From Rhynchobatus australiae (lineage: Eukaryota), in NCBI GenBank assembly GCA_034780895.1, contig JAUZTB010000017.1, positions 18,629,968 to 18,693,967 of the forward strand: a DNA stretch of 64,000 nt. The letters are read 5' to 3'. The position numbers and the translations under genes were made by a program. The notes under the pieces were generated by a model. It worked only from the letters and a program-made list of their open reading frames with translations, was not told the DNA's origin and did no database searches. This document shows positions 1-62,099 of this stretch, piece after piece. The stretch's first letter is position 1. Every line of letters starts with the position of its first letter.

Positions 1-876
1 CTACTCTTACCAATACCGTTCAAATCAGAGCTCAAAGTTGAGGCCTGCTGTTGTATTTGGTTGTTTCTAAATACCTGTCCTTCATCTCAACAACAGTTGG
101 GAACCAGTTCATTGGATAGCAAACTAACCGTAGCAGCTTTTCTTCACTTTCTGTCAGTTGGTTCAACATGCTGTAGATTTCAATAATATCATAGTTTGCT
201 TTCTACAGACCTGGGCTGCGTTTCAGGGGTCATTAGTGAGCAGCCTGCTTTTGGTCAACATGAAGTAGCAGATACATCATAGGAAAATATTAGAATGTGC
301 AGGCACTTGGATACTGTCCAGTTGATTTTAAGCTTCAAGAAATTACAATGGCTCATTTAATTAAGTAAATGAGTAATTAAACCACATCAATCAGGAAAAT
401 CACAGCTTTTAATCTACCCACCCAGCAGAAACTGGGTAGACTGGCAGTTGGTTTCTTACCTGATTGAAATGTGACCCTTTGCTGCCATCCCCGATCTGAC
501 AGGTGAGGTTACAGAGGTAGGCAGTGACGCATCAAAAGCATGCAGGCAGTTTGGGAATTTATGTGCACAGGTGACCTCTGTGTTACAGTCATTCAGGTTA
601 CAGGAATTCCCCCTAACAGAATTCACAAATCACTGCCCAAAATAATGAGATATGGAATAAAATTTGCTTTCATGAAATTTATGTGAAAATAAAGTAAATA
701 AATCAACACAAAGTTATTCTTTTTCAGCTCTGGTTTCTTGACATATGCGTAGATGACGTGACTTTGTGTTAAGAAAAATTGTGATATGGACCATTTTCTA
801 GGAAATGCAACCCCCACCCCTCCCAATTTTGTGAGAATCACCTGCAAAGGGTTCCTATTACATCAGTAGGACCCCA

Positions 877-961
877 GTGATTTAAGGCAGAGGATTCATA
901 TGTTCTTGATCGATAAGGGGGTTAAAAGGTTATGGAGAGAAGGCAAGAGAATGAGATTGAA
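877..961 (+). mobile_element. CR1-like LINE 3' fragment running into a gap
   Basis: tttaaggcagag..ttcttgat..aaggggttaaaaggttatggagagaaggca, a typical CR1 3' region. Confidence 0.65.
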
Positions 962-1577
962 NNNNNNNNNNNNNNNNNNNNNNNNNNNNNNNNNNNNNNN
1001 NNNNNNNNNNNNNNNNNNNNNNNNNNNNNNNNNNNNNNNNNNNNNNNNNNNNNNNNNNNNNGTTTGCACGTAAAACATCAGTTGGTCCAACAGAATATTT
1101 TTCTAAATAGCACAGGATGGACAGATGCCTGATGTCAGTTAAGTATTTGTGCTCCTGAACATAACACTATCACAAGACCTATATATGTCTCATTTTTGGT
1201 GTTGGTACCAGTAATGAGATTACAAACCTTAGCTAACTGTGTCATGGAAAATGCTACTTGCTCATGAGTTGGTCCAAACATTAAAGTCATTCATTTACTC
1301 GTTCTGCATTTTGCTTCCTCTTATTGTATTGTTACTGGTAATGGTGCAATGTTCAGAGAGGAAGGCTGAGTGACATCATTTTCTTGTTACCTTCCAACCA
1401 CATCCACACAGATTCTGAGACCACTTTGCTTCAGTTTTAATGTCATCCCAGTGCCCAACATGTTAAAGTATTTCTGCAACATTTCAACCGGACTGCTATG
1501 TTCATGGATTATGAATTTCAGACACTCTCTATCCTTTTCCAGAAGTTCTATAAATTGTTTTATGCTGNNNNNNNNNN

Positions 1578-1660
1578 TCTCCCTCTCCCTCTCCCTCTCT
1601 CTCTCTCTCTTCCTCCTCTCCTTCTTTCCATCTCTCTTTCTCTCCCTCTCCCTCCCAACA
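1578..1660 (+). repeat. (CT)n-rich microsatellite
   Basis: Pyrimidine repeat beside a small gap. Confidence 0.9.
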
Positions 1661-1759
1661 GTTTTTCCCCGACTTCTACCACGTTAGCTATAACTTTTCC
1701 CAACTTACCCTCACTACAAAGATGTTGAAGGGAAGCCCATCCATTTGGTGAAAATTTCC

Positions 1760-2340
1760 AGTATTACAGGGGTGGAAGGGGAAGAGGGTTTTCCGCCCCC
1801 CTCTGACTTCTTCCCAGCTGTGAAGGTTCGAACCTTGGACTTGCACAAACCCTTTCACAAAAGGATGGGAAATTCCTGGCGAGGGAGAAGTAAGCCAGCG
1901 TGTCCACAGGCACAGCAGAGCCTTGTCTCTTTGGCAGTGTACGGTACATTTTGTGCACCAACCCAGGCATGTTTTGCCCATGTAACATGCAGCCAAACAC
2001 TAGATGGGAAGGTGGTGAGGGGTGGAGACAACTACTCTTGGACAACCCATGAGCCTTACTGGGTGTCCCTCTGATCAGCTGAGCAATACCCACAACCGTT
2101 CCAACCAATGGCACATTTCTCTGCAGCCAAGAAGTCCCCATGAACCAGCTGCTGTTGGATTGTGTCTCTGCCAGTGTTGAAGCTATCAACTGATTGACAG
2201 GCACTGCATTCAGACTCCAGTGTAACTGATCTGCAACTCCCCTCCTGAAACACCAGGGTGCCTCTTGGAGCTCAGCACCATGAGCACTCAGTGTGGCCCT
2301 TGACTGTCGGCTCAGACACCGTTATCACCCCCTTCTTTAT
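1760..2340 (-). mobile_element. Possible decayed Tx1/L1-type ORF1 relic
   Basis: GC-richer block with frameshifted Cys-rich knuckle-like pieces (AIGWNGCGYCSADQ; CLGWCTKC; CCACGHAG). Confidence 0.3.
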
Positions 2341-2484
2341 TAATGACCCTGTCTCCAGGTATTTGAAATGGGGTCAAGCAACAAACTAATGTTGCAATAT
2401 TGGTCCAGAACACCTGGGCAGATTTAACCCAGTTCTGTTGGGGTTGTAGTCTGCATCACAAACTGCCCGTCATTCAACAGTACG

Positions 2485-3152
2485 TAAGAACATAGGAAAT
2501 AGGAGCAGGAGGAGGCCATCTGGCCCATCGAGCCTGCTCCACCATTCAATGAGATCAGGGCTGATCTGACTGGACTCAGCTTCACCTACCCGCCTTTTCC
2601 CCATAACCTTTAATTCCCCTACTTAGTTGTATCTTAAATATATTTAGTGAGGTAGCCTCTACTGCTTCCCTGGGCAGACAATTCCACAGATTCACTGCTT
2701 TCCGAGAAAAGCAGTTTCTCCTCATCTCCGTCCTAAATCTATTCCCCCCAATNNNNNNNNNNGCTGATCTGACTGTGGACTCAGCTCCACCTACCCGCCA
2801 TTTCCCCAGAACCCTTAATTCCCCGACTCTGCAAAAATCTATCTCACTGTCTTAAATGTATTTAACGAGGTCGCCTCTACTGCTTCCCTGGGCAGAGGAA
2901 TCCACAGATTCACTACTCTCTGGAAAAGCAGTTCCTCCTCATCTCTGTCCTAGATCTACTCCCCCGAACCTTGACACTATGTCCCCTGGTTCTAGTCTCA
3001 CCTACCAGTGGAAACAATGTTCCTGCTTCTATCTTATTAATCCCTTTCATAATTTTATATGTTTCCATAAGATCCCCTCTCATTCATCTGAATTCCAGCA
3101 AGTATAGTCCCAGGTGACTCAATCTCTCCACGCAGGCTAACCCCCTCATCTC
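2485..3152 (-). mobile_element. CR1-like LINE 3' ends (two related copies either side of a 10-N gap)
   Basis: aagaacataggaaataggagcagg..ggccatctggcccatcgagcctgctcc tail plus RT C-terminal remnant. Confidence 0.85.
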
Positions 3153-3701
3153 TAGTACTGAGTTACTGAAGAATAATCTCTCACTGTTCCACACAGCTAT
3201 TTAACTCTCCCTCCGTTACCTATCCTGCCCCTGTCCTGCTCCGTCCACCACCTCTTCCCAACTGCCTTACTGGCTTTACTGCTCACCCTCCAACATCTGG
3301 ACCTTGGGGCAAACAGGATCAGCTTTAACTATGTTGTACTCCACAGTCAAACACCCCACTGGCTCCCTTCATCATCAGTGTAACTGGTGCTGAATTGTGA
3401 ATCTCACTCAGGCAGCTTGCTTGGAGATCTGCAAGAATAATCCAATTGCAAAGTTTGGTGCCTTGTTAACAATGGGTTTAAAGAATGTTTTGTGAAGAGG
3501 TCACTCTTGTCCTTCTCACATCTGCTATTCCTGAGCATGAATTGAATGCAATAATTGAAAAATAGTTTGTGTCCAGTGTCAATCCTCAAATCGATAAAGC
3601 AATTATTCCCGAACATTCTCAACGAGGGACTTGGTGAATTATATTTGTTAAATACTGATTTGATTTGATGATGAATGCATGTCCTTTTCTTCTATTGACA
3701 G

Positions 3702-3810
3702 GCATCCCTGCTGTGGTGGTGTCTTTGTGTATTGCAGTGAACAAGAACAATTATGGCCAGTATCCTGTCAAAACACAGGAGAATGACAGCACAGGTTCAA
3801 TGGGTTCAAT
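3702..3810 (+). pseudogene. Isolated exon resembling adhesion GPCR (ADGRG/GPR56-like) TM4-ECL2
   Basis: Pyrimidine tract + cag|GC-IPAVVVSLCIAVNKNNYGQYPVKTQENDSTGSMGS-AT|gtaggt; phase 1 to phase 2, no stop; no partner exons found in the window. Confidence 0.65.
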
Positions 3811-4199
3811 GTAGGTCTTGTTAACCATGCCAAGAGCAATAATGTTGGTACTTGACTTTCTTCCACTGTTTAGTCCTGTGACTAGAATTTTAGCTGAACT
3901 TGATGTCCAGAGAGTCACGCAGGCAAGGACGCCCTGTCAGCTGACATCGGGCAGTCCATGGTGACCACATTACCACCCTGATGGTGAGAGGGAAATCTGC
4001 CAGGGACTTGGAGAAACAGGATCAGGTTTAACTATGTTGTCGCAACCGTCAAACATCCCACTGGCATTCCAGCCACCAGAGACACATGGGAGGGTGAGCA
4101 GTAAGCCAGTAAAGCATTTGGGAAGAGGTGGTGGAGGGAGCAGGACTGGAGGGTCAACTGAAGAGTTCTGAGGAACAGTAGGAGATTATTCATTAGTAA

Positions 4200-4396
4200 C
4201 TCAGTATCGAGTATAGGAGTTGGGATGTTATGGTTAGGTTGTATAAGACATTGGTGAGGCCAAATTTGGAGTGTTGTGTGCAGTTCTGGTCACCTAACTA
4301 CAGGAAGGATATCAGTAGGATTGAAAGAGTGCAGGAGATTTACTACAATGTTGCTGGGTCTGCAGGAGCTTAGTTACAGGGAAAGATTTAATAGGT
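4200..4396 (+). mobile_element. CR1-like LINE RT C-terminal fragment
   Basis: Encodes LYKTLVRPNLECCVQFWSPNYRKDI. Confidence 0.85.
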
Positions 4397-4400
4397 TTGT

Positions 4401-4640
4401 AGGGGTGGCACGGTAGCGTAGCAGCTAGCACAACACTATCACAGCACCAGCGATCAGGGTTCGATTCCCGTTGCTGTCTGTAAGGACGTTCTCCCATGTC
4501 TGCGTGTGTTTCCACTGGGTGGTCTGGTTTCCTCCCACATTCTAAATACATACGGGTAGGTTAATTTGGGGTTTAAAATGGGCGGCGCGGACTCGTTGGG
4601 CCAGAAGGGCCTGTTACCAAGCCGTAAATAAAATTTAAAA
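4401..4640 (+). mobile_element. tRNA-derived V-SINE (HE1-like)
   Basis: Pol III A-box-like tggcacggtag, B box ggttcgattccc, V-domain ggtttcctcccaca, CR1-type 3' end gggccagaagggcctgtt. Confidence 0.85.
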
Positions 4641-6350
4641 TGCAAAAGTTGAGAGAGTTCTCAACCTCCCCCTCCCAACCTGAGCCCACTTCCCGATCAT
4701 TTCTGATTAACATCAATCTCCAGATCCTTGAAGTAGCTGATCCCCAATTGGAATCCAATTCCAGAAGAGCCAGTCCAATACATTCACTCTTGCTGTTCAG
4801 TGAGCTGCACCATGTGTGGCTAGGATTTGAAACATATACAGGAAAGAGTGGTAGATAATTGGAGAAAAAAATTTGGGGGCATGGAAAAAGGGTTAGAGGG
4901 AATGGGAGTAACTAGATTGCTCTTCGAAAGACTTGATGCAAATTCAATGGGGTGAATGGCCTCTTTTGGCCCTTTATCATTCTAAGGAGGGGATTAGTCT
5001 TGGCTGTCTTTGATTCAAAGTTAAAATTCAGGCACAATTCAAGATGGTAGATATTTTATGGTTTGAACACAATTAACAAAAGTGATATAATTTTGTGAGA
5101 TGCCACAGGTCCCACTCCTCTTATGTCGTCCTTTGGTACTGCAGAGCGTGAATGCTGATTAGGAATTTTTCCAAAGTGAAAGAAGTAATAAGAAAGCTTG
5201 AAGGAACATTTCATCTAGTCCATTCAATGAGTGTTCTAAAGGAAAACTGACTAACAAGAGGTGCTTTTACTATTTATCCAACTTAATTATTTTTTCCTCT
5301 CTTCCCATAATAGTTGAAATGTTGTTTCGAGATTGGGATTCCTATGCTCAAAACTATCTTAATTAAAATGCTCATGCTGACTTTCAAATTCTTACACAGC
5401 CTTGCATTCCACTAGTTTTTATCTTCCTTTAATTTTAGTCATATATCCAGGCTTGCATCCTTCAGTGTCCTAACTTGGGCAGTTCTTGACATCTTGGTAC
5501 AGAAAACAACCCTTGCCATAGCTGTTTATAACTAGCCAGTTAATAGATCAAAAATGATTTGTGATAGAGAAATCTGAAAAACAATATAAGAAAAAGTGCC
5601 TGTAAATGAGAGGCGAAAGATCATTCAGACTAATTCCAGGTGAAATCATAGATCAGTATGGTCTTGATTCAATAGTCAGTTCATTGCACACTTATCCCTA
5701 CGAGTCTCTTATGTGGTGTTATTATGTGCATTTGTGCTAAAGGCCTTGTATTTTATGTGAAAGCATGTCAAAATGTTTTATGGCAAAGAAAACACTAACT
5801 TTTCTTTTAGGTACTCAGTATGTGTTCGCGTGCCACAAGTCTGTGTGTGTCTGTGTGGGGTAGGGGGTGGGGGAGTTGCTATCCCAATAAACTCAGTGAA
5901 TGTCCACAATGTAGATAGGAAACCTTGAGTACCAGGAGCCAAAACTAGGACAATACCTTCTTTCAGGAAAGAAATTATTTAGCCACCATTTAAGATTTTG
6001 ATGAAATCTATCAAAGACCAGAAGAATCCTTCCTTTGTAACATATTCTACAGATGTGTAGTTTTGAAATGTATGGTTTATGTCTAATACCTTCAGATACA
6101 AATACCTCACACCCAAATAGCACAACTTTTAAGTTCATTTCTGACTTTATGAGTGACCTGGGAAACATTACTGACGATAGAATAAACTAGCTTGAGTTAC
6201 ATTGATTTACATTCAGAAGTGAAAATGTTAATTGTTTTAATCCTGATTTTGTGAGGCCAGTTCTGCAACCCCAATGTTGCAGTAAAGGTCAGCACTTTTG
6301 CACTACTGATGAGGGATCCATAGTGCTACATTTTCCAAGATTATTTGATT

Positions 6351-6630
6351 ATAAGACAAGATATCTTTATCAGTCACACGTACATCGAAACACACAGTGA
6401 AATGCATCTTTGCATAGAATGTTCTGGAGGCAGCCTGCAAGTGTCGCCACACTTCCCATGCCAGCATAGCATGTCCACAACTTCCTAACCCGTATGTCTT
6501 TGGATTGTGGGAGGAAACCAGAGCACCTGGAGGAAACCCATGCAGATAAACTCCTTACAGATAGCAGACGGAATTGAACCCAGGTCACTGGCGCTGTAAT
6601 AGCATTATGCTAACCGCTACCCTACCATGC
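6351..6630 (-). mobile_element. tRNA-derived V-SINE
   Basis: Reverse strand has B box gggttcaattcc and V-domain (plus strand tgtgggaggaaaccagagcacctggaggaaaccc). Confidence 0.85.
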
Positions 6631-7534
6631 CTACACCATATGCTCCCTGCATATTTTAAACATATACAGGGAGTGACAGAACCACAAGTAGGTGACAACA
6701 GTGAGTGCAGCAGTTCAAAAAGATTATTGCTCTTAAAGAACTATGAATTCTTTTGTTTACAGTGATCTGTTGTGCCTGACTAGCTTAAAGATGATGGAGC
6801 CATGGGTCAAATATGAGAACTGCCCCACATGATGAAGAGACTTCAGATATGTTACTTGATGTTGTGTGATGGAGGAGGTTTATTACAATGGGAAAGCTTC
6901 CTCTCAATCCTTAAGTACACAGCCAGTGCACTCTCCCACAGCTATTGGTCAAGTGAGTAACTCTGTGGTACTTAGAAGATTGCCAAAGTAGTTGATGANN
7001 NNATAGTTTGCCAACTTAAATGAGTAAGCCTGGAGTGTATATTCACTGCACATTGGGTCAATACAGTGGTCCAATACAACTTGGAAAGCGCTGGTTCAGT
7101 TCCTCACATTCTCACTCCACTCTATGCCTGCAGAACAGCAACTTGGGTCACAGTGGAAGGGAAAATCTTTCAATGGCTCACAATTGTTTTATGCTTTGGC
7201 AGCAGTTCCACACGGCACCTTGAAGGCTTCAAAAAGGAAATACAGGCTATGTATCATATGAACCCTTGTGTTATATTGATCCTCTTAAAGGATTAGTTTG
7301 TCCAAGAGAAAGGCCTATGGCAATCAAAAGAGAAGCCTCACTGGGGGCAACCAAGACAACACCTAAACAGATACTTACGAAGAAGGCTGCCTAACTAACC
7401 CTGGGGTGGAGGTACGGTTGGAGAGGATTGCCATGGTGTATAAAAAGGCAGAATAGTGGATTCATATTATCTCATTCAAGTGTTTGCTTCAACACCTGGT
7501 TTTTGACTAGTTGCTGGTTTTGCCCAAATTGCTT

Positions 7535-7890
7535 AGATGAAACATTAAATCATAGTCTTCTAGTCTGTCCTCTCAGGACATAAAATAGACAATGGCTCTA
7601 TTGTTATGTACTTTGACACCAGTTCCATAAAGATCCCTGAGGAAGGGTGGAAGAAATCTTGAGTTGGACAGAATACCCACTTTTTGTGGAAAGAAAAAAT
7701 AATCCTGTGCACTTGAGGAAGAATTGGGGCAAGACAGGAAGGGAAGATAGAAACTGAGGTATTTACACCATCAAAGCAGGAAATCTTGTCAATAATCCCA
7801 TTGGCATTCAGAGGACATCAGTTGTGCAAAATGGCTGCAATACAAATGTGACTACCTTTCAAAGATTACTTAAGTGACTTCGAAGTGCTT
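7535..7890 (+). mobile_element. Ancient DeuSINE (AmnSINE/SacSINE-like) remnant
   Basis: gatgaaacattaaat..gtctgtcctctcaggacataaaa..atggctctatt and tgtgcaaaatggctgc..gtgactac..aagtgcttt resemble the Deu domain. Confidence 0.55.
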
Positions 7891-9959
7891 TTATTGTCAT
7901 GAACATACAAATACAATTGTTTAATAGCTCCTTACATTCTCTCATTCAGACAGGTTACAAAAGTTATCAAACAGCAGCATTGCGTCAAGTTGCTACATCA
8001 TGGAGCATCTTTACTGACATGACCCATGCTCAATAGTTATTCCTCTCTCTTTGTGTTGAGGCCACCTGAGCTGATATTTCCCCAGCAGAGGAAGCTGACA
8101 ACAGTATAGCAAGTACTAGCTCACATATATCCACCTCAGGGAATCTGAAAAATTAGGTCAGATGTTTCAGAGTGGGCAACCCACTGTAAGTCAATGTTAG
8201 TTGATACCAAATGGTCATTTGGAGTCATTCAGACCAACTACGATAGTGGTGCTATCTCATGCTACCATGTTGTAACTATATACTTAAGTCATAAGGGCAT
8301 GAATTCAGAATAGTATTTGCCCATATCATTTACTGCACACTGTCTCTTGGAGGGACCTCCTGAGGGATGAAAGATAATTTTGTCTGACAGGTACTCCAGT
8401 TCAGCAATGTGCTGGGAAGTCCAAATTGTTCTGGGAGGGCCCAATGNNNNNNNNNNNNNNNAAAGTACCCTATACTGCTTTCTACCCAAGAACTGCCAAA
8501 GTAAAAAAAAACACTTTAGGGACATGAAAAGGATTTGCATCCAAAAGTGCCCTTTCAAAAATTGGAAGTAATGCTTAATGACCCAGACCATTCATTATCT
8601 TGTTTTACTCAGGGGGAAAGGAATTTTCACTCACATAACACCTTATGTTATGCAAAATGTTATGCTCTTTAATTTCTGGGCAGACACTTTTACATAATTT
8701 AACACTGCAGGACAATTCTATCAGTAAAGGACATTTACATGGTTATGACTTACTTTTCAGCAGCAATACATGTCTAATCATAATATTCTCATTCACCTGA
8801 ATAAATGATGAAGTATGACTGCATTTTACATTCCTACACTGTGCAGATGCAAAGACCATCATTGGGGAATGTAAATAAAACCTTAGAATACAAATGTGAG
8901 ACTTCAAATTGTCTTATGATGATGAAAGATCTTTCTTGTGCAGTGTTTGATTCATCCATGTACTTAGGCAGAAATCTAAATTCCCAAATCAATGTCTTGA
9001 AGTAATCACAGCCCCACACAGATGAGTTAAAATGTTGAATTCCTAAACTCACCCAAGTTTGTTGTAGAGTGTGTGCACCTTTCTCCATATAATAATGGTT
9101 TTGGTCACTCAGCATATAAATATTGTATCTTTACTGGTATCAATGATCACTTTTTGCAGAACTTCAGCAGGACTATTAATGATGGCTCTTCAGTGGTCAA
9201 CAAGTTTCTTCTGTTTGATACCACAGAACAAACTTGTGGAATCAAGATCATGGAAACAAGCCCTTCACTCCACCATATAAGTGTCAATAATTCTAGTTTA
9301 TTACCCATTGATTAATAGAAAGCCATAGATCTCAAAGTGACAGACAAAATTAGGAATTCTTTGCTGTTGGATAACTGATCCAATTAAAGAATGGCTCAAC
9401 TGTAGTTTGTTCAATATCCTGACACCATATACGATTGATAACTTTGTTAAGCTAAGAATTTTTATTCATTTCAGCATCTATTATTGGTCTGTGTATTAAA
9501 TGTAATACTTCAGGCATTATGGATATCTATACACATGCTGGATTATGTAATGGGCCTGTTGAACAACAAACCTATGCATAGGTATAATTACAGCATGTGC
9601 AGTTGAAATTCTTGAATGCAACTATATGCAAGTAGTGATATCATAAAGGTGCTACAAAATAAAGTGTTTATAATCTTTTAGCTGTGCTGATTTTTGTCTT
9701 ATGTCACTGCACTGACTTCTAATATACAATCATCTCTGAACGTTTTGATGTGTCTGTTACCACTACTAGTGTTAAACACATGGTAAATATACAAGAAGAT
9801 ACCTGGAGAGTGGGCTTGCATGTTCCTGTGTTTGAACAAAGTTTGCTTTGAGTTCAACAACACTAATCTGTCAGAGTACAAAAAAATGAGGTTAACACCT
9901 ATATTCAAACAAAGGTGTTATTTATATTCCTAAGTAATTACCCATTTCAAAACACAACA

Positions 9960-12900
9960 GCTGTATGACTGATAGCTAAAGCCTCGATTTATTGTTTCTA
10001 CTGGTGGCAAAATATGGTTCACGCAGAAGCTGACATTTATAGTGGGCTTGGAATATTTTATTGTCTCTCAAATAATCAGCATCAACATTGTGTTGGTCAA
10101 CAATTTTACAGGACGTGTCAGGGAAATAGTAACATTTAAATTAAGAGGGGATGTCCTTTGGCATTTAAAGGAAAATTAAACTAAGTTTTGGTTATATTTT
10201 CTTTTGCTTAATAATGTGTCCAGCAGTATTTAAGAACAAACAGCATAATATAGAAGCAAATCTTTCATATAGACAAATCATTTATAGCCTTAACTAGGCT
10301 TTTAGCTATTTGAAAAACTGTAACAACAAAATAGAACTTTTTTGTAAAAAAAATCAATAAATTAGNNNNNNNNNNNNNNNNNNNNNNNNNNNNNNNNNNN
10401 NNNNNNNNNNNNNNNNNNNNNNNNNNNNNNNNNNNNNNNNNNNNNNNNNNNNNNNNNNNNNNNNNNNNNNNNNNNNNNNNNNNNNNNNNNNNNNNNNNNN
10501 NNNNNNNNNNNNNNNNNNNNNNNNNNNNNNNNNNNNNNNNNNNNNNNNNNNNNNNNNNNNNNNNNNNNNNNNNNNNNNNNNNNNNNNNNNNNNNNNNNNN
10601 NNNNNNNNNNNNNNNNNNNNNNNNNNNNNNNNNNNNNNNNNNNNNNNNNNNNNNNNNNNNNNNNNNNNNNNNNNNNNNNNNNNNNNNNNNNNNNNNNNNN
10701 NNNNNNNNNNNNNNNNNNNNNNNNNNNNNNNNNNNNNNNNNNNNNNNNNNNNNNNNNNNNNNNNNNNNNNNNNNNNNNNNNNNNNNNNNNNNNNNNNNNN
10801 NNNNNNNNNNNNNNNNNNNNNNNNNNNNNNNNNNNNNNNNNNNNNNNNNNNNNNNNNNNNNNNNNNNNNNNNNNNNNNNNNNNNNNNNNNNNNNNNNNNN
10901 NNNNNNNNNNNNNNNNNNNNNNNNNNNNNNNNNNNNNNNNNNNNNNNNNNNNNNNNNNNNNNNNNNNNNNNNNNNNNNNNNNNNNNNNNNNNNNNNNNNN
11001 NNNNNNNNNNNNNNNNNNNNNNNNNNNNNNNNNNNNNNNNNNNNNNNNNNNNNNNNNNNNNNNNNNNNNNNNNNNNNNNNNNNNNNNNNNNNNNNNNNNN
11101 NNNNNNNNNNNNNNNNNNNNNNNNNNNNNNNNNNNNNNCATTCTTATTTCAGGAAGATGTTATTTTACTACAAGATAGTAAGATCAGAAATGAATTTTTT
11201 TGATATTATGATAAGAGTTTGAATAGGATATGTTGCAACTTAGGCCCTAGCACACAGAGAAAGGTATGTTTAGTCTTCTGAGGTCACATAAACTGTGTTC
11301 TGTATAACCTGGCAAAGACCTGTAAAGATATCCTCACTTCACTGGTCATTTTGGCACTGACAGGAAAGCTCACTGCTGGAGGTAATAAAAATGAGAATGC
11401 ACTTCTGACATGATAAAACCAGTGTATGGGAAATTATAACACTGAAAATCAAAGAAAAAAATTGTTCAGGGCACTGAAATGATCCCTTAACATTCATGCA
11501 TATTATACTGCACCTTATTTCATGGAAACACAGTATGAAGATAATTGGCTAACCAGAGCACAATCATGTTCAAAAATATAAGATTAAACTACTGCAAAAT
11601 AATGCCAAAGCAATATCAGCATCAGAAACTAGTCTCACCTGACAGAAAATTTAGACAATTTTAATTTCACAACTAAACACTTATGTCCAGCAGCCATTGA
11701 AATTACTACTTGTAGAGTTTCAGATGGAGTATTAGGCACCGTTTCAGTTAACAAATAGTTAAATTCTTCTGATCACGTGGGTTGGGCAAGCTGGTATCAC
11801 ATCTTCAAAACCAAACCCACATTAACTTTCCATTAACATTCTACATTTTGAGGCATATATAATAGAAATTAATGACTTTGGTGAAAGTTAGATCATCTAT
11901 ATCTATAGAAGGTACTTTGCATGATTAAGTTTACAATCATTTTCTTTTAATTGTGTGGAAAATGTTAATAATTTGTAGCAAATTTACATACTTCTACAGG
12001 GCAGCTTGCAATTGTTGGAAATGAAATATGAACCTTTTTGAGATTAACCTTATCTAATGTGTCTAACAGAATAAGAGCAGGAAGGGACTTCTAGCTCTTT
12101 CAACTCTGTCATAACCCTTAACCCACTTATTACGACCATGGTCCCTTCTAATGCAGCACTGAATCCTGCCAGACCCATTGCCTGCAGAGCAGAGGACTGA
12201 AGCCTGGGGAAGAATCTTGACAGTGCTGCAGCAGGCCATTTATTGCAGCATTCCAGAAGGGGACTGATCAAGCAAGAGAACAGAATAGTTGGGATGAAAG
12301 GAAGATATTCATGAAGTCTTTGGAACAGGAATAGAATCTGAAGGAAGTTTTAGTGGGCCTTCCTCCTCCACTGAAGAATTTTGGCAATTTGCTGTCAATC
12401 CCTCAGGCCTACCACACAAAGATCCCTGGGGAAGGAGGAGAAAGTTAGAGGAAAAAGTGAGTATGGAATCTCACCTGTTCAAATACTCACTCCAGCCAAT
12501 TCACACCCCTACCCCACATAGTATTATGTGAGTGGACAAAGAAAGGGCTGATGAAAAGATCAGATTACACTCAAGAAAGGATGAGGCAGTCAGTCATTCT
12601 GGCCATATTTGTAACCCCCCCCACTCCCATCTTATGTTATCAAGGCTGAGGAAAATCAAGCCATTGTGTCCCAAATCATGCCGTCGCAATAATTTTCTTG
12701 ATGGATCACTACATTTTGCCCATCAGCAAACACTGAATTGTAGTAGATGGCCAGATTTGAGAGCATCAATATGACACATTCTCTCTGTGCAAAACCTTAA
12801 GTGAAAATCTACTTGCTGCTTTATATCATAGGTTTTTTTGTTCTGGATAAACACCCATACTTAGACAGGACTTTTATAATACCCAGTCCAACACACTTTA

Positions 12901-13587
12901 ATTTTCTGTCCATTTCCCATCTAGCAAAAGCCAGACATAATACAAGAAATTCAAAGATTAATTGTTTTAATTGTTACTAAACACCAGTTAAATAAATTAT
13001 TCCCTGAAAAAGAAACTTAGTGTCTTGAAAATGTTGCATAACTGAAGTGCTAGGAATTGCTGCAGAAACAGTTTTCAAGCGCATTTAGTTATTTAACAAA
13101 AATTGCTTTCATTTTCTGGTTGCAAATAGAATCACCTTTTTATCCATACAAAAAATAGTTCACTGTAAATATATATATATAATAATATATATATATAAAA
13201 TATATTTATACATATTTGGGTATATTTACAAATATAGCCAGCACTCTGAAGTTTCATGCTGGATAACTTTTCCAATATTACAAAATTAACAATATAGGCA
13301 GAACTTCCTACTTCGAGTCTTGCCCAAAGTCCAACCAGTCAGCTTTTGATGGAACATAAATTGGCCAGGTCACCAAAAACAAAATTTTGCTCATAATACT
13401 TAATCTGTCTTCTTTGCAACAAAATATATACAGCTGAACATTTCTTCATGAACAGCCTACTGCAATCTTTGCTTTCATTATAACCATGTCCAACCAACAT
13501 TCTATTCTGGTGCCCAAGTTTCTTGAAGATATGTAAAACAGGGAAGACGATGTTTAAATTCAGTTTTGTAACAACTGGCTCTTTCGT
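9960..13587 (-). other. FGFR2: Putative FGFR2 3' UTR (distal end uncertain; contains an N gap at 10366-11138)
   Basis: Repeat-poor AT-rich sequence follows the stop codon. Minus-strand AATAAA occurs at 10057-10062 and 9988-9993, the latter followed by GU-rich CTGTTGTGTTTTG. Confidence 0.45.
9988..9993 (-). promoter_or_regulatory. Candidate distal polyadenylation signal
   Basis: AATAAA with a downstream GU-rich tract; a second AATAAA lies ~70 nt upstream. Confidence 0.4.

Positions 13588-62099
<48,512 letters not shown>

What the first reader, a model, noticed from the sequence alone, without database searches (positions are those of the whole stretch)
3702..3810. Orphan adhesion-GPCR (ADGRG-like) exon downstream of FGFR2 on the opposite strand
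Seen: a clean 109-bp exon with a pyrimidine tract, cag acceptor and gtaggt donor, phase 1 to 2, encoding (G)IPAVVVSLCIAVNKNNYGQYPVKTQENDSTGSMGS(M/I). It is absent from the ORF track. Known: ADGRG receptors have GWG-x-P in TM4, then NYG, and ECL2 runs into CW; human ADGRG1 reads GFPIFLVTLVALVDVDNYG...YPSMCW, with NYG at the same offset. The usual mammalian neighbours of FGFR2 are WDR11 and ATE1, not ADGRG genes. I found neither the preceding GWG exon nor the following CW/TM5-7 exon in the window. Inference: a transposed or duplicated gene fragment with its intronic flanks (exon shuffling in progress), or part of an unannotated convergent transcript.
Basis: partly seen in the sequence, partly recalled or inferred. 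Interest (0 to 1): 0.75.

Follow-up and report, generated by a model that had tools for sequence, protein, structure and literature searches.

The report
Stranded receptor exon beside ray FGFR2
One exon of an adhesion-receptor (ADGRG) gene sits alone about 10 kb behind the FGFR2 gene of a ray, inside a 1-kb stretch with inverted ends that related species share; it is likely an old, decaying copy moved from another chromosome, an ordinary kind of genome debris, though an assembly error is not excluded.

Summary
The exon is real. 3702-3810 encodes TM4-ECL2 of an ADGRG receptor, 70-76% identical to sawfish, stingray and manta ADGRG proteins. It is the only ADGRG piece in the 64-kb window. In 10 of 11 annotated sharks and rays, FGFR2 and this ADGRG cluster lie on different chromosome-scale records. 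New: the exon lies in a ~1,050-bp unit with 136-nt inverted ends (outer TA) and a 61-nt direct repeat on both sides of the core. The unit is present in four organisms at 93-100% identity, so it is old, not shuffling 'in progress'. No family of further copies and no parent was laid at 80%. Eight of 33 residues never occur in 20 batoid paralogues, and the three listed differences from organism C are all non-synonymous. Best reading (0.55): a DNA-level copy from the ADGRG tandem cluster, placed by repair or template switching, now decaying; it works like a single-copy Pack-TIR but membership is not shown. Against: changes avoid TM4 (P=0.02), and the link to FGFR2 crosses three N gaps, so a misplaced real gene remains possible (0.2).

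The parts
3702..3810 (+). ADGRG TM4-ECL2 exon, 109 nt, phase 1 to 2, open frame
3678..3701 (+). Pyrimidine tract and AG acceptor
3811..3816 (+). GTAGGT donor
3794..3811 (+). 9-nt tandem duplication at the exon end (adds 3 residues; absent in organism D, whose exon has the 100-nt length implied by the relatives' proteins)
   Evidence: sequence; table 4 (9 letters left out at 3796 in X5)
3364..4006 (+). Core between the direct repeats: presumed intron-exon-intron copy of about 640 nt (that the flanks come from the parent's introns is inferred)
   Evidence: parent DNA not available
3156..3291 (+). Left arm of the inverted repeat; outer end TA then CTGAG
   Evidence: 105/136 identities, 18 gaps, E 2e-22 in the window; score 110 vs max 35 in 200 controls
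4089..4206 (-). Right arm of the inverted repeat; outer end CTCAG then TA
   Evidence: organisms C and D carry letters that make the arms more alike (3215, 3243, 4154, 17 letters put in behind 4146)
3303..3363 (+). Direct repeat, left copy (61 nt)
   Evidence: 53/61; score 74 vs max 29 in 200 controls
4007..4065 (+). Direct repeat, right copy
2486..3155 (-). High-copy repeat abutting the left arm (two similar pieces either side of a 10-N gap; 'CR1-like LINE' is a recalled label)
   Evidence: summed depth 1e4-1e5; five listed records end at 3152
4207..4400 (+). High-copy repeat abutting the right arm, a different piece in the other orientation ('CR1-like' recalled); a SINE-like repeat follows at about 4407-4640
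13591..13752 (-). Last coding exon of FGFR2, 9.8 kb from the orphan exon
   Evidence: 53/54 identical to sawfish FGFR2
10366..11138 (.). 773-N gap; with the gaps at 6999-7002 and 8447-8461 it separates the exon from FGFR2
   Evidence: gap flanks match no other window repeat

Best explanation
The 109-nt ADGRG exon stands alone in the window inside a ~1,050-bp unit with inverted ends, and is likely an old, non-functional DNA copy of one exon with its intron flanks, taken from the ray ADGRG tandem cluster on another chromosome and now decaying. Likely mechanism (inferred): a break in or beside an inverted-repeat element was repaired by template switching or gap filling. This pasted in about 640 nt of the ADGRG gene and copied 61 nt on both sides, as in single-copy Pack-TIRs. 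It predates the split of organisms A-D. Shown: homology, orphan status in the window, repeat anatomy, presence in four organisms, accelerated protein change. Inferred: the parent locus, the repair mechanism, that the arms are transposon ends (about 0.35 within this reading), loss of function, true adjacency to FGFR2.
For: Homology bounded exactly by intact splice sites. No other ADGRG piece in 64 kb, with controls. FGFR2 and the ADGRG cluster on records of different length in 10 of 11 species: M. hypostoma 66.7/80.6 Mb, M. birostris 67.3/86.2, Hemitrygon 67.0/91.7, Hypanus 68.4/85.9, Pristis 57.8/54.0, Amblyraja 59.9/51.0, Leucoraja 46.0/43.8, Carcharodon 122.1/193.5, Cetorhinus 97.1/158.6, Chiloscyllium 74.9/85.0. 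The parent family duplicates by lineage (sawfish copies group together 100/99, manta copies 90/85) and has partial gene models (P0005, P0006). Relaxed constraint: 8 of 33 residues are never seen in 20 sawfish/stingray/manta paralogues, two at columns invariant in all 20; 8 private changes vs 1 in sawfish, P=0.04. Versus organism C the exon differs at 3/109 sites, the flanks at 13/404 (3358-3870), and all 3 exon differences are non-synonymous; two of them are letters where C and D keep the residue of the relatives. Likelihood ratio neutral vs uniform omega 0.2 = 21, vs TM4 0.05/ECL2 0.3 = 6. A clean frame with intact AG/GT survives 10% neutral decay in 26% of simulations, so 'clean' is not evidence of function. 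Inverted and direct repeats are far above chance and of similar age, 11% and 10% mismatch.
Against: Only 1 of the 8 changes against sawfish lies in the first 18 codons (TM4-NYG), P=0.02 under uniform decay with a boundary I chose after seeing the data; this is the pattern of a working receptor. With TM4 fully constrained and ECL2 free, the A-C data favour selection 3 to 1. The 9-nt duplication is in frame, and an intact Hypanus paralogue has a 3-residue insertion in the same loop (P0170). No parent DNA was laid at 80%, so the donor is not identified. The exon's protein divergence (11.7% per non-synonymous site) exceeds what the arms' age predicts (P=0.04), so arms and capture may be separate events. 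No further copies of the arms and no empty site were laid. In Narcine both genes share one 108.75-Mb record. Adjacency to FGFR2 crosses three N gaps. One search hid 153 difference rows, so the organism D comparison is incomplete (5 of 14 differences of its exon-spanning record are listed).
Confidence: 0.55

Rival explanations
1. The exon belongs to a real, divergent ADGRG paralogue in its normal cluster; the short contig (2763-6998) that carries it was scaffolded next to FGFR2 by mistake.
For: Changes avoid TM4 (P=0.02); frame and splice sites are intact; no parent copy was laid, as expected if this is the locus itself; 19 N gaps in the window, three between exon and FGFR2; the 10-N gap at 2753 joins two 81%-alike repeat pieces.
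Against: Flanks of the three gaps match no repeat in the window; all FGFR2 exons are in correct order across many gaps, so the scaffolding is mostly right; 8 residues unseen in 20 paralogues and only non-synonymous recent changes; no database protein closer than 25/33 among those returned, though the word-index search with the exon was insensitive.
Confidence: 0.2
2. The exon is the last piece of a larger, 3'-truncated ADGRG duplicate whose earlier exons lie to the left of the window; the inverted repeat is an unrelated local rearrangement in its introns.
For: A Mobula gene model ends its ADGRG likeness at exactly this exon (P0005); only 3.7 kb with three gaps is visible upstream; the arms are younger than the exon's divergence suggests.
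Against: No upstream exon in 1-3700; the exon sits centrally in a symmetric unit with direct repeats either side of the core.
Confidence: 0.15
3. The displaced exon has been recruited into a working convergent or antisense transcript behind FGFR2 (exon shuffling).
For: Good acceptor and donor; TM4 half conserved; plus-strand AATAAA sites downstream, first at 4627 (common by chance). Tan et al. report that some Pack-TIRs are transcribed as chimeras (PMC8277862, passages).
Against: A lone TM4-ECL2 piece has no plausible receptor function (established 7TM architecture); recent changes look neutral; no CpG-rich promoter-like stretch in 1-14000 (CpG o/e at most 0.35).
Confidence: 0.07

Closest known systems
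Single-copy Pack-TIRs of animals (Tan et al. 2021, PMC8277862; abstract, passages, sections 8 and 14 read; supplements not seen)
   Same: A host gene piece of a few hundred bases, with exon and intron, between inverted ends; single copy; TA at the outer ends; proposed origin by gap filling.
   Different: Their arms belong to an annotated TIR transposon family and the parent is at least 90% identical; neither was found here. Most of theirs lie near the parent (56.9% within 15 kb), whereas this one would be interchromosomal. The 61-nt direct repeat inside the arms is not part of their definition.
Decaying (pseudogenic) duplicated exons (Morais and Harrison 2009, PMC2718932; abstract and outline only)
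   Same: A single duplicated exon with codon changes typical of decay.
   Different: Theirs are defined by stops or frameshifts and lie in or near their own gene; this one has an open frame and lies behind an unrelated gene.
Chondrichthyan ADGRG tandem cluster (NCBI 'ADGRG1/G2/G5-like'; e.g. XP_051883895.1, XP_051884681.1, XP_059849398.1)
   Same: Same exon, same boundaries; 25/33 identical to the sawfish proteins.
   Different: No GAIN/GPS, TM1-3 or TM5-7 exons in the window; apparently another chromosome; 8 private residues.

Membership tests
ADGRG-derived exon | Significant homology to ADGRG 7TM proteins, with matching exon ends | tested here: met
ADGRG gene (complete receptor) | GAIN/GPS plus seven TM segments at the locus | tested here: not met
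   only this exon in 64 kb; sequence left of the window and inside N gaps not seen
ADGRG1/3/5 subgroup | Clusters with ADGRG1/3/5 rather than G2/4/6 | tested here: inconclusive
   parent family scores higher against G6/G2 than G3/G5/G1 chains (similarity only, constructs differ in length); no tree with mammalian members was built
Pack-TIR | Internal host sequence of 100-5,000 bp between inverted terminal arms | tested here: met
   criteria from PMC8277862 section 14
Pack-TIR | Arms belong to a TIR transposon family with other copies | tested here: not met
   at 80% likeness one contig covers the unit in X1 (flat 9.45) and one most of it in X4, against 1e4-1e6 summed depth on flanking repeats; a low-copy or older family could be missed, and no transposon library was available
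Pack-TIR | Identifiable parent copy at >=90% identity | tested here: not met
   no second contig laid over the core in X1; contigs show presence, not absence, and human-like contigs are filtered silently
Pack-TIR | Target-site duplication or empty site in relatives | tested here: inconclusive
   TA at both ends, but TA is its own reverse complement; the flanks are two different repeat pieces; no listed joint skips 3157-4205 (19 joints not shown)
Pseudogenic exon | Disabling stop, frameshift or lost splice site | tested here: not met
   frame open, AG/GT intact
Pseudogenic exon | Neutral substitution pattern | tested here: inconclusive
   for; against: (P=0.02 clustering outside TM4)
Retrocopy | Joined exons without introns, poly(A) tail | tested here: not met
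   homology stops at the splice sites

The most novel reading that the evidence does not exclude
The unit is a Pack-TIR of a cartilaginous fish: a now-extinct TA-targeting DNA transposon carried an ADGRG exon between chromosomes into the gene desert behind FGFR2, where the TM4 half has stayed under constraint in a spliced convergent transcript.
Probability: 0.06. Interest if true: 0.6.

Novelty: new member of a known kind. Interest (0 to 1): 0.27.

Why it matters
If the best reading holds it is a tidy, dated example of an exon moved between chromosomes at the DNA level in a ray, with the repair scars still legible, and a shared derived marker for a group of related rays. It also shows that the shark/ray ADGRG cluster duplicates and sheds pieces. 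This is modest: such fragments are a known class. It would matter more if the arms proved to be transposon ends (the main text of Tan et al. has no occurrence of 'shark'; supplements not seen) or if the exon were spliced into a transcript. For annotators, the practical point is not to call an ADGRG gene here without checking the scaffold.

Tried and rejected
Pfam with the peptide alone: no hit; with 16 local ORFs: nothing above cut-off, no transposase. PDB with the peptide: one chance hit, E 1.4. ESM Atlas: no usable hit. Own-genome search: no genome is held for this window, so no blastn for a parent locus. Word-index search with the exon: 3 candidates, none at E<=10, although relatives exist, so it is uninformative. 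Expression: no RNA holder listed; not evidence either way. In one search, X2 has no cover at about 3760-3837 and X5 little at 3937-4180; these holes are not findings. Rfam over 1062-13600: 0 matches at E<=1. Metagenome scan with a sawfish ADGRG protein: 80 pattern matches, none confirmed. Earlier scan findings: nothing in 4 look-ups. My first idea, an active MITE/Pack-type family, was dropped. The jacalin hit P0002 was dropped as a repeat-driven chance match. My notes call the parent 'ADGRG1/3/5-like'; one search does not support that precision. DNA folding of the unit gives a long stem from the arms (no shuffles at this length), which adds nothing beyond the alignment. Literature searches listed no paper on this locus; only listings were seen except for three papers (PMC8277862; PMC8584163, passages; PMC2718932).

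Full report
Observation. Pfam, PDB and the ESM Atlas do not recognise the 36-residue peptide alone. A full phmmer scan of 1.84 billion representatives returns four batoid ADGRG proteins at 70-76% identity and one chance jacalin hit. Identity begins at the acceptor glycine and ends at the donor, and two Mobula gene models leave the full-length alignment at the same exon end. So this is a genomic ADGRG exon with its own splice sites, not a retrocopy. The subfamily is unresolved: NCBI names mix G1-, G2- and G5-like, and a sawfish member is most similar to ADGRG6 and ADGRG2 among solved structures.

Orphan status. tblastn with seven relatives gives this one strong hit (E 4e-11 for the sawfish protein; the output was cut). 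An HMM of 21 relatives over all 2,825 stop-to-stop pieces finds only it (iE 1.2e-13, next 4.1), while held-out skate pieces for the neighbouring parts score 5e-31 to 9e-6. Sequence left of the window and inside N gaps is not covered. The minus-strand gene is FGFR2, with exons in correct order from 62097 to 13591, closest to the sawfish protein among nine compared. The organism is therefore a batoid. By record length, FGFR2 and the ADGRG cluster are on different chromosome-scale sequences in 10 of 11 annotated sharks and rays, and on the same one in Narcine.

The exon lies in a ~1,050-bp unit. Inverted arms run 3156-3291 and 4089-4206 (105/136 identities), with TA outside CTGAG/CTCAG. A 61-nt direct repeat (3303-3363, 4007-4065; 53/61) brackets a ~640-nt core. 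Both repeats are far beyond 200 Markov controls (110 vs 35; 74 vs 29). Each outer end abuts a different high-copy repeat piece, in opposite orientations (the label CR1-like is recalled, not tested).

Relatives. Four of 15 listed runs were laid at 80% likeness. X1 (possibly the source) covers 3101-4199 in one contig with one difference. X2 (organism B) covers 3246-3759 and 3838-4208 with 1 and 4 differences. X4 (organism C) covers 3103-4125 with 39 differences and 20 gap letters. X5 (organism D) covers 3291-3657 and 3628-3915 at about 93-95%. Leaving X1 out, three studies hold the unit. Depth over the interior is that of one or a few contigs, against 1e4-1e6 on the flanks, so the arms are not a high-copy family at this likeness, and no second copy of the core was laid. 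These are absences in contigs, and the tool filters some records. Organisms C and D carry letters that make the two arms more alike, and D lacks the 9-nt duplication at the exon end, so both the arm divergence and the extra three residues are derived. No contig bridges the flanking repeats, so adjacency to FGFR2, across gaps at 6999, 8447 and 10366-11138, is unverified; the gap flanks at least match no repeat in the window.

Selection. Eight of 33 residues are never seen in 20 sawfish, stingray and manta paralogues, most of which lie 0-3 steps from the majority residue; the relative-rate count is 8 to 1 against sawfish (P=0.04). Against organism C the exon changes as fast as its flanks (3/109 vs 13/404) and all three changes are non-synonymous. 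A clean exon survives 10% neutral decay about one time in four. Against pure decay: only one of the eight changes lies in the first 18 codons (P=0.02, boundary chosen after seeing the data), a model with fixed TM4 and free ECL2 fits the A-C data three times better than neutrality, and a similar 3-residue loop insertion exists in an intact Hypanus paralogue. The simplest reconciliation is that the donor was an already diverged working paralogue and the copy has drifted since; this is inference.

Mechanism. The parent family duplicates by lineage and leaves partial models. I think a break in or next to an inverted-repeat element was repaired by template switching, which inserted the intron-exon-intron piece and repeated 61 nt on each side (0.55 for a displaced decaying copy). 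This works like the single-copy, gap-filled Pack-TIRs of Tan et al. 2021 (PMC8277862; sections 8 and 14 read), but two of their defining tests, a known TIR family and a parent at 90% or more, were not met, so I do not file it as one. Rivals: a real paralogue's exon on a misplaced contig (0.2); the end of a larger truncated duplicate extending left of the window (0.15); a recruited exon in a convergent transcript (0.07). Expression could not be tested.

Verdict. Observation confirmed, interpretation partly supported. It is an old displaced ADGRG exon shared by several related rays, a new member of a known kind of gene fragment, with an unexplained but suggestive inverted-repeat frame. Interest 0.27.

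Noticed in passing
P0003, P0016 (Pristis); P0004, P0011, P0012 (Hemitrygon); P0008, P0010, P0164 (Hypanus); P0005, P0006, P0013-P0015, P0159 (Mobula): Batoids carry several near-identical ADGRG copies on one chromosome-scale record each; sawfish copies group together and manta copies group together, suggesting repeated lineage-specific expansion of a receptor whose ADGRG subfamily is unclear.
   Followed up: partly
window 2560-2968: Two 81%-alike pieces of the same repeat sit either side of the 10-N gap at 2753-2762: a real tandem or a scaffolding join through a repeat.
   Followed up: no
window 38157-39121 (minus): Both alternative FGFR2 Ig-III exons are present (38972-39121 and 38157-38300); their naming as IIIb and IIIc is recalled.
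   Followed up: no
window 4154: All four laid runs read A where the window has T: an assembly error or private allele in the right arm.
   Followed up: no
window 1767-2321 (minus): 185-codon stop-to-stop frame with no Pfam hit; probably chance or a decayed repeat.
   Followed up: partly
Narcine record of 108,750,091 bases: FGFR2 and the ADGRG gene share one record in Narcine alone; a chromosome fusion is the likely reason (inferred), their distance is unknown.
   Followed up: no
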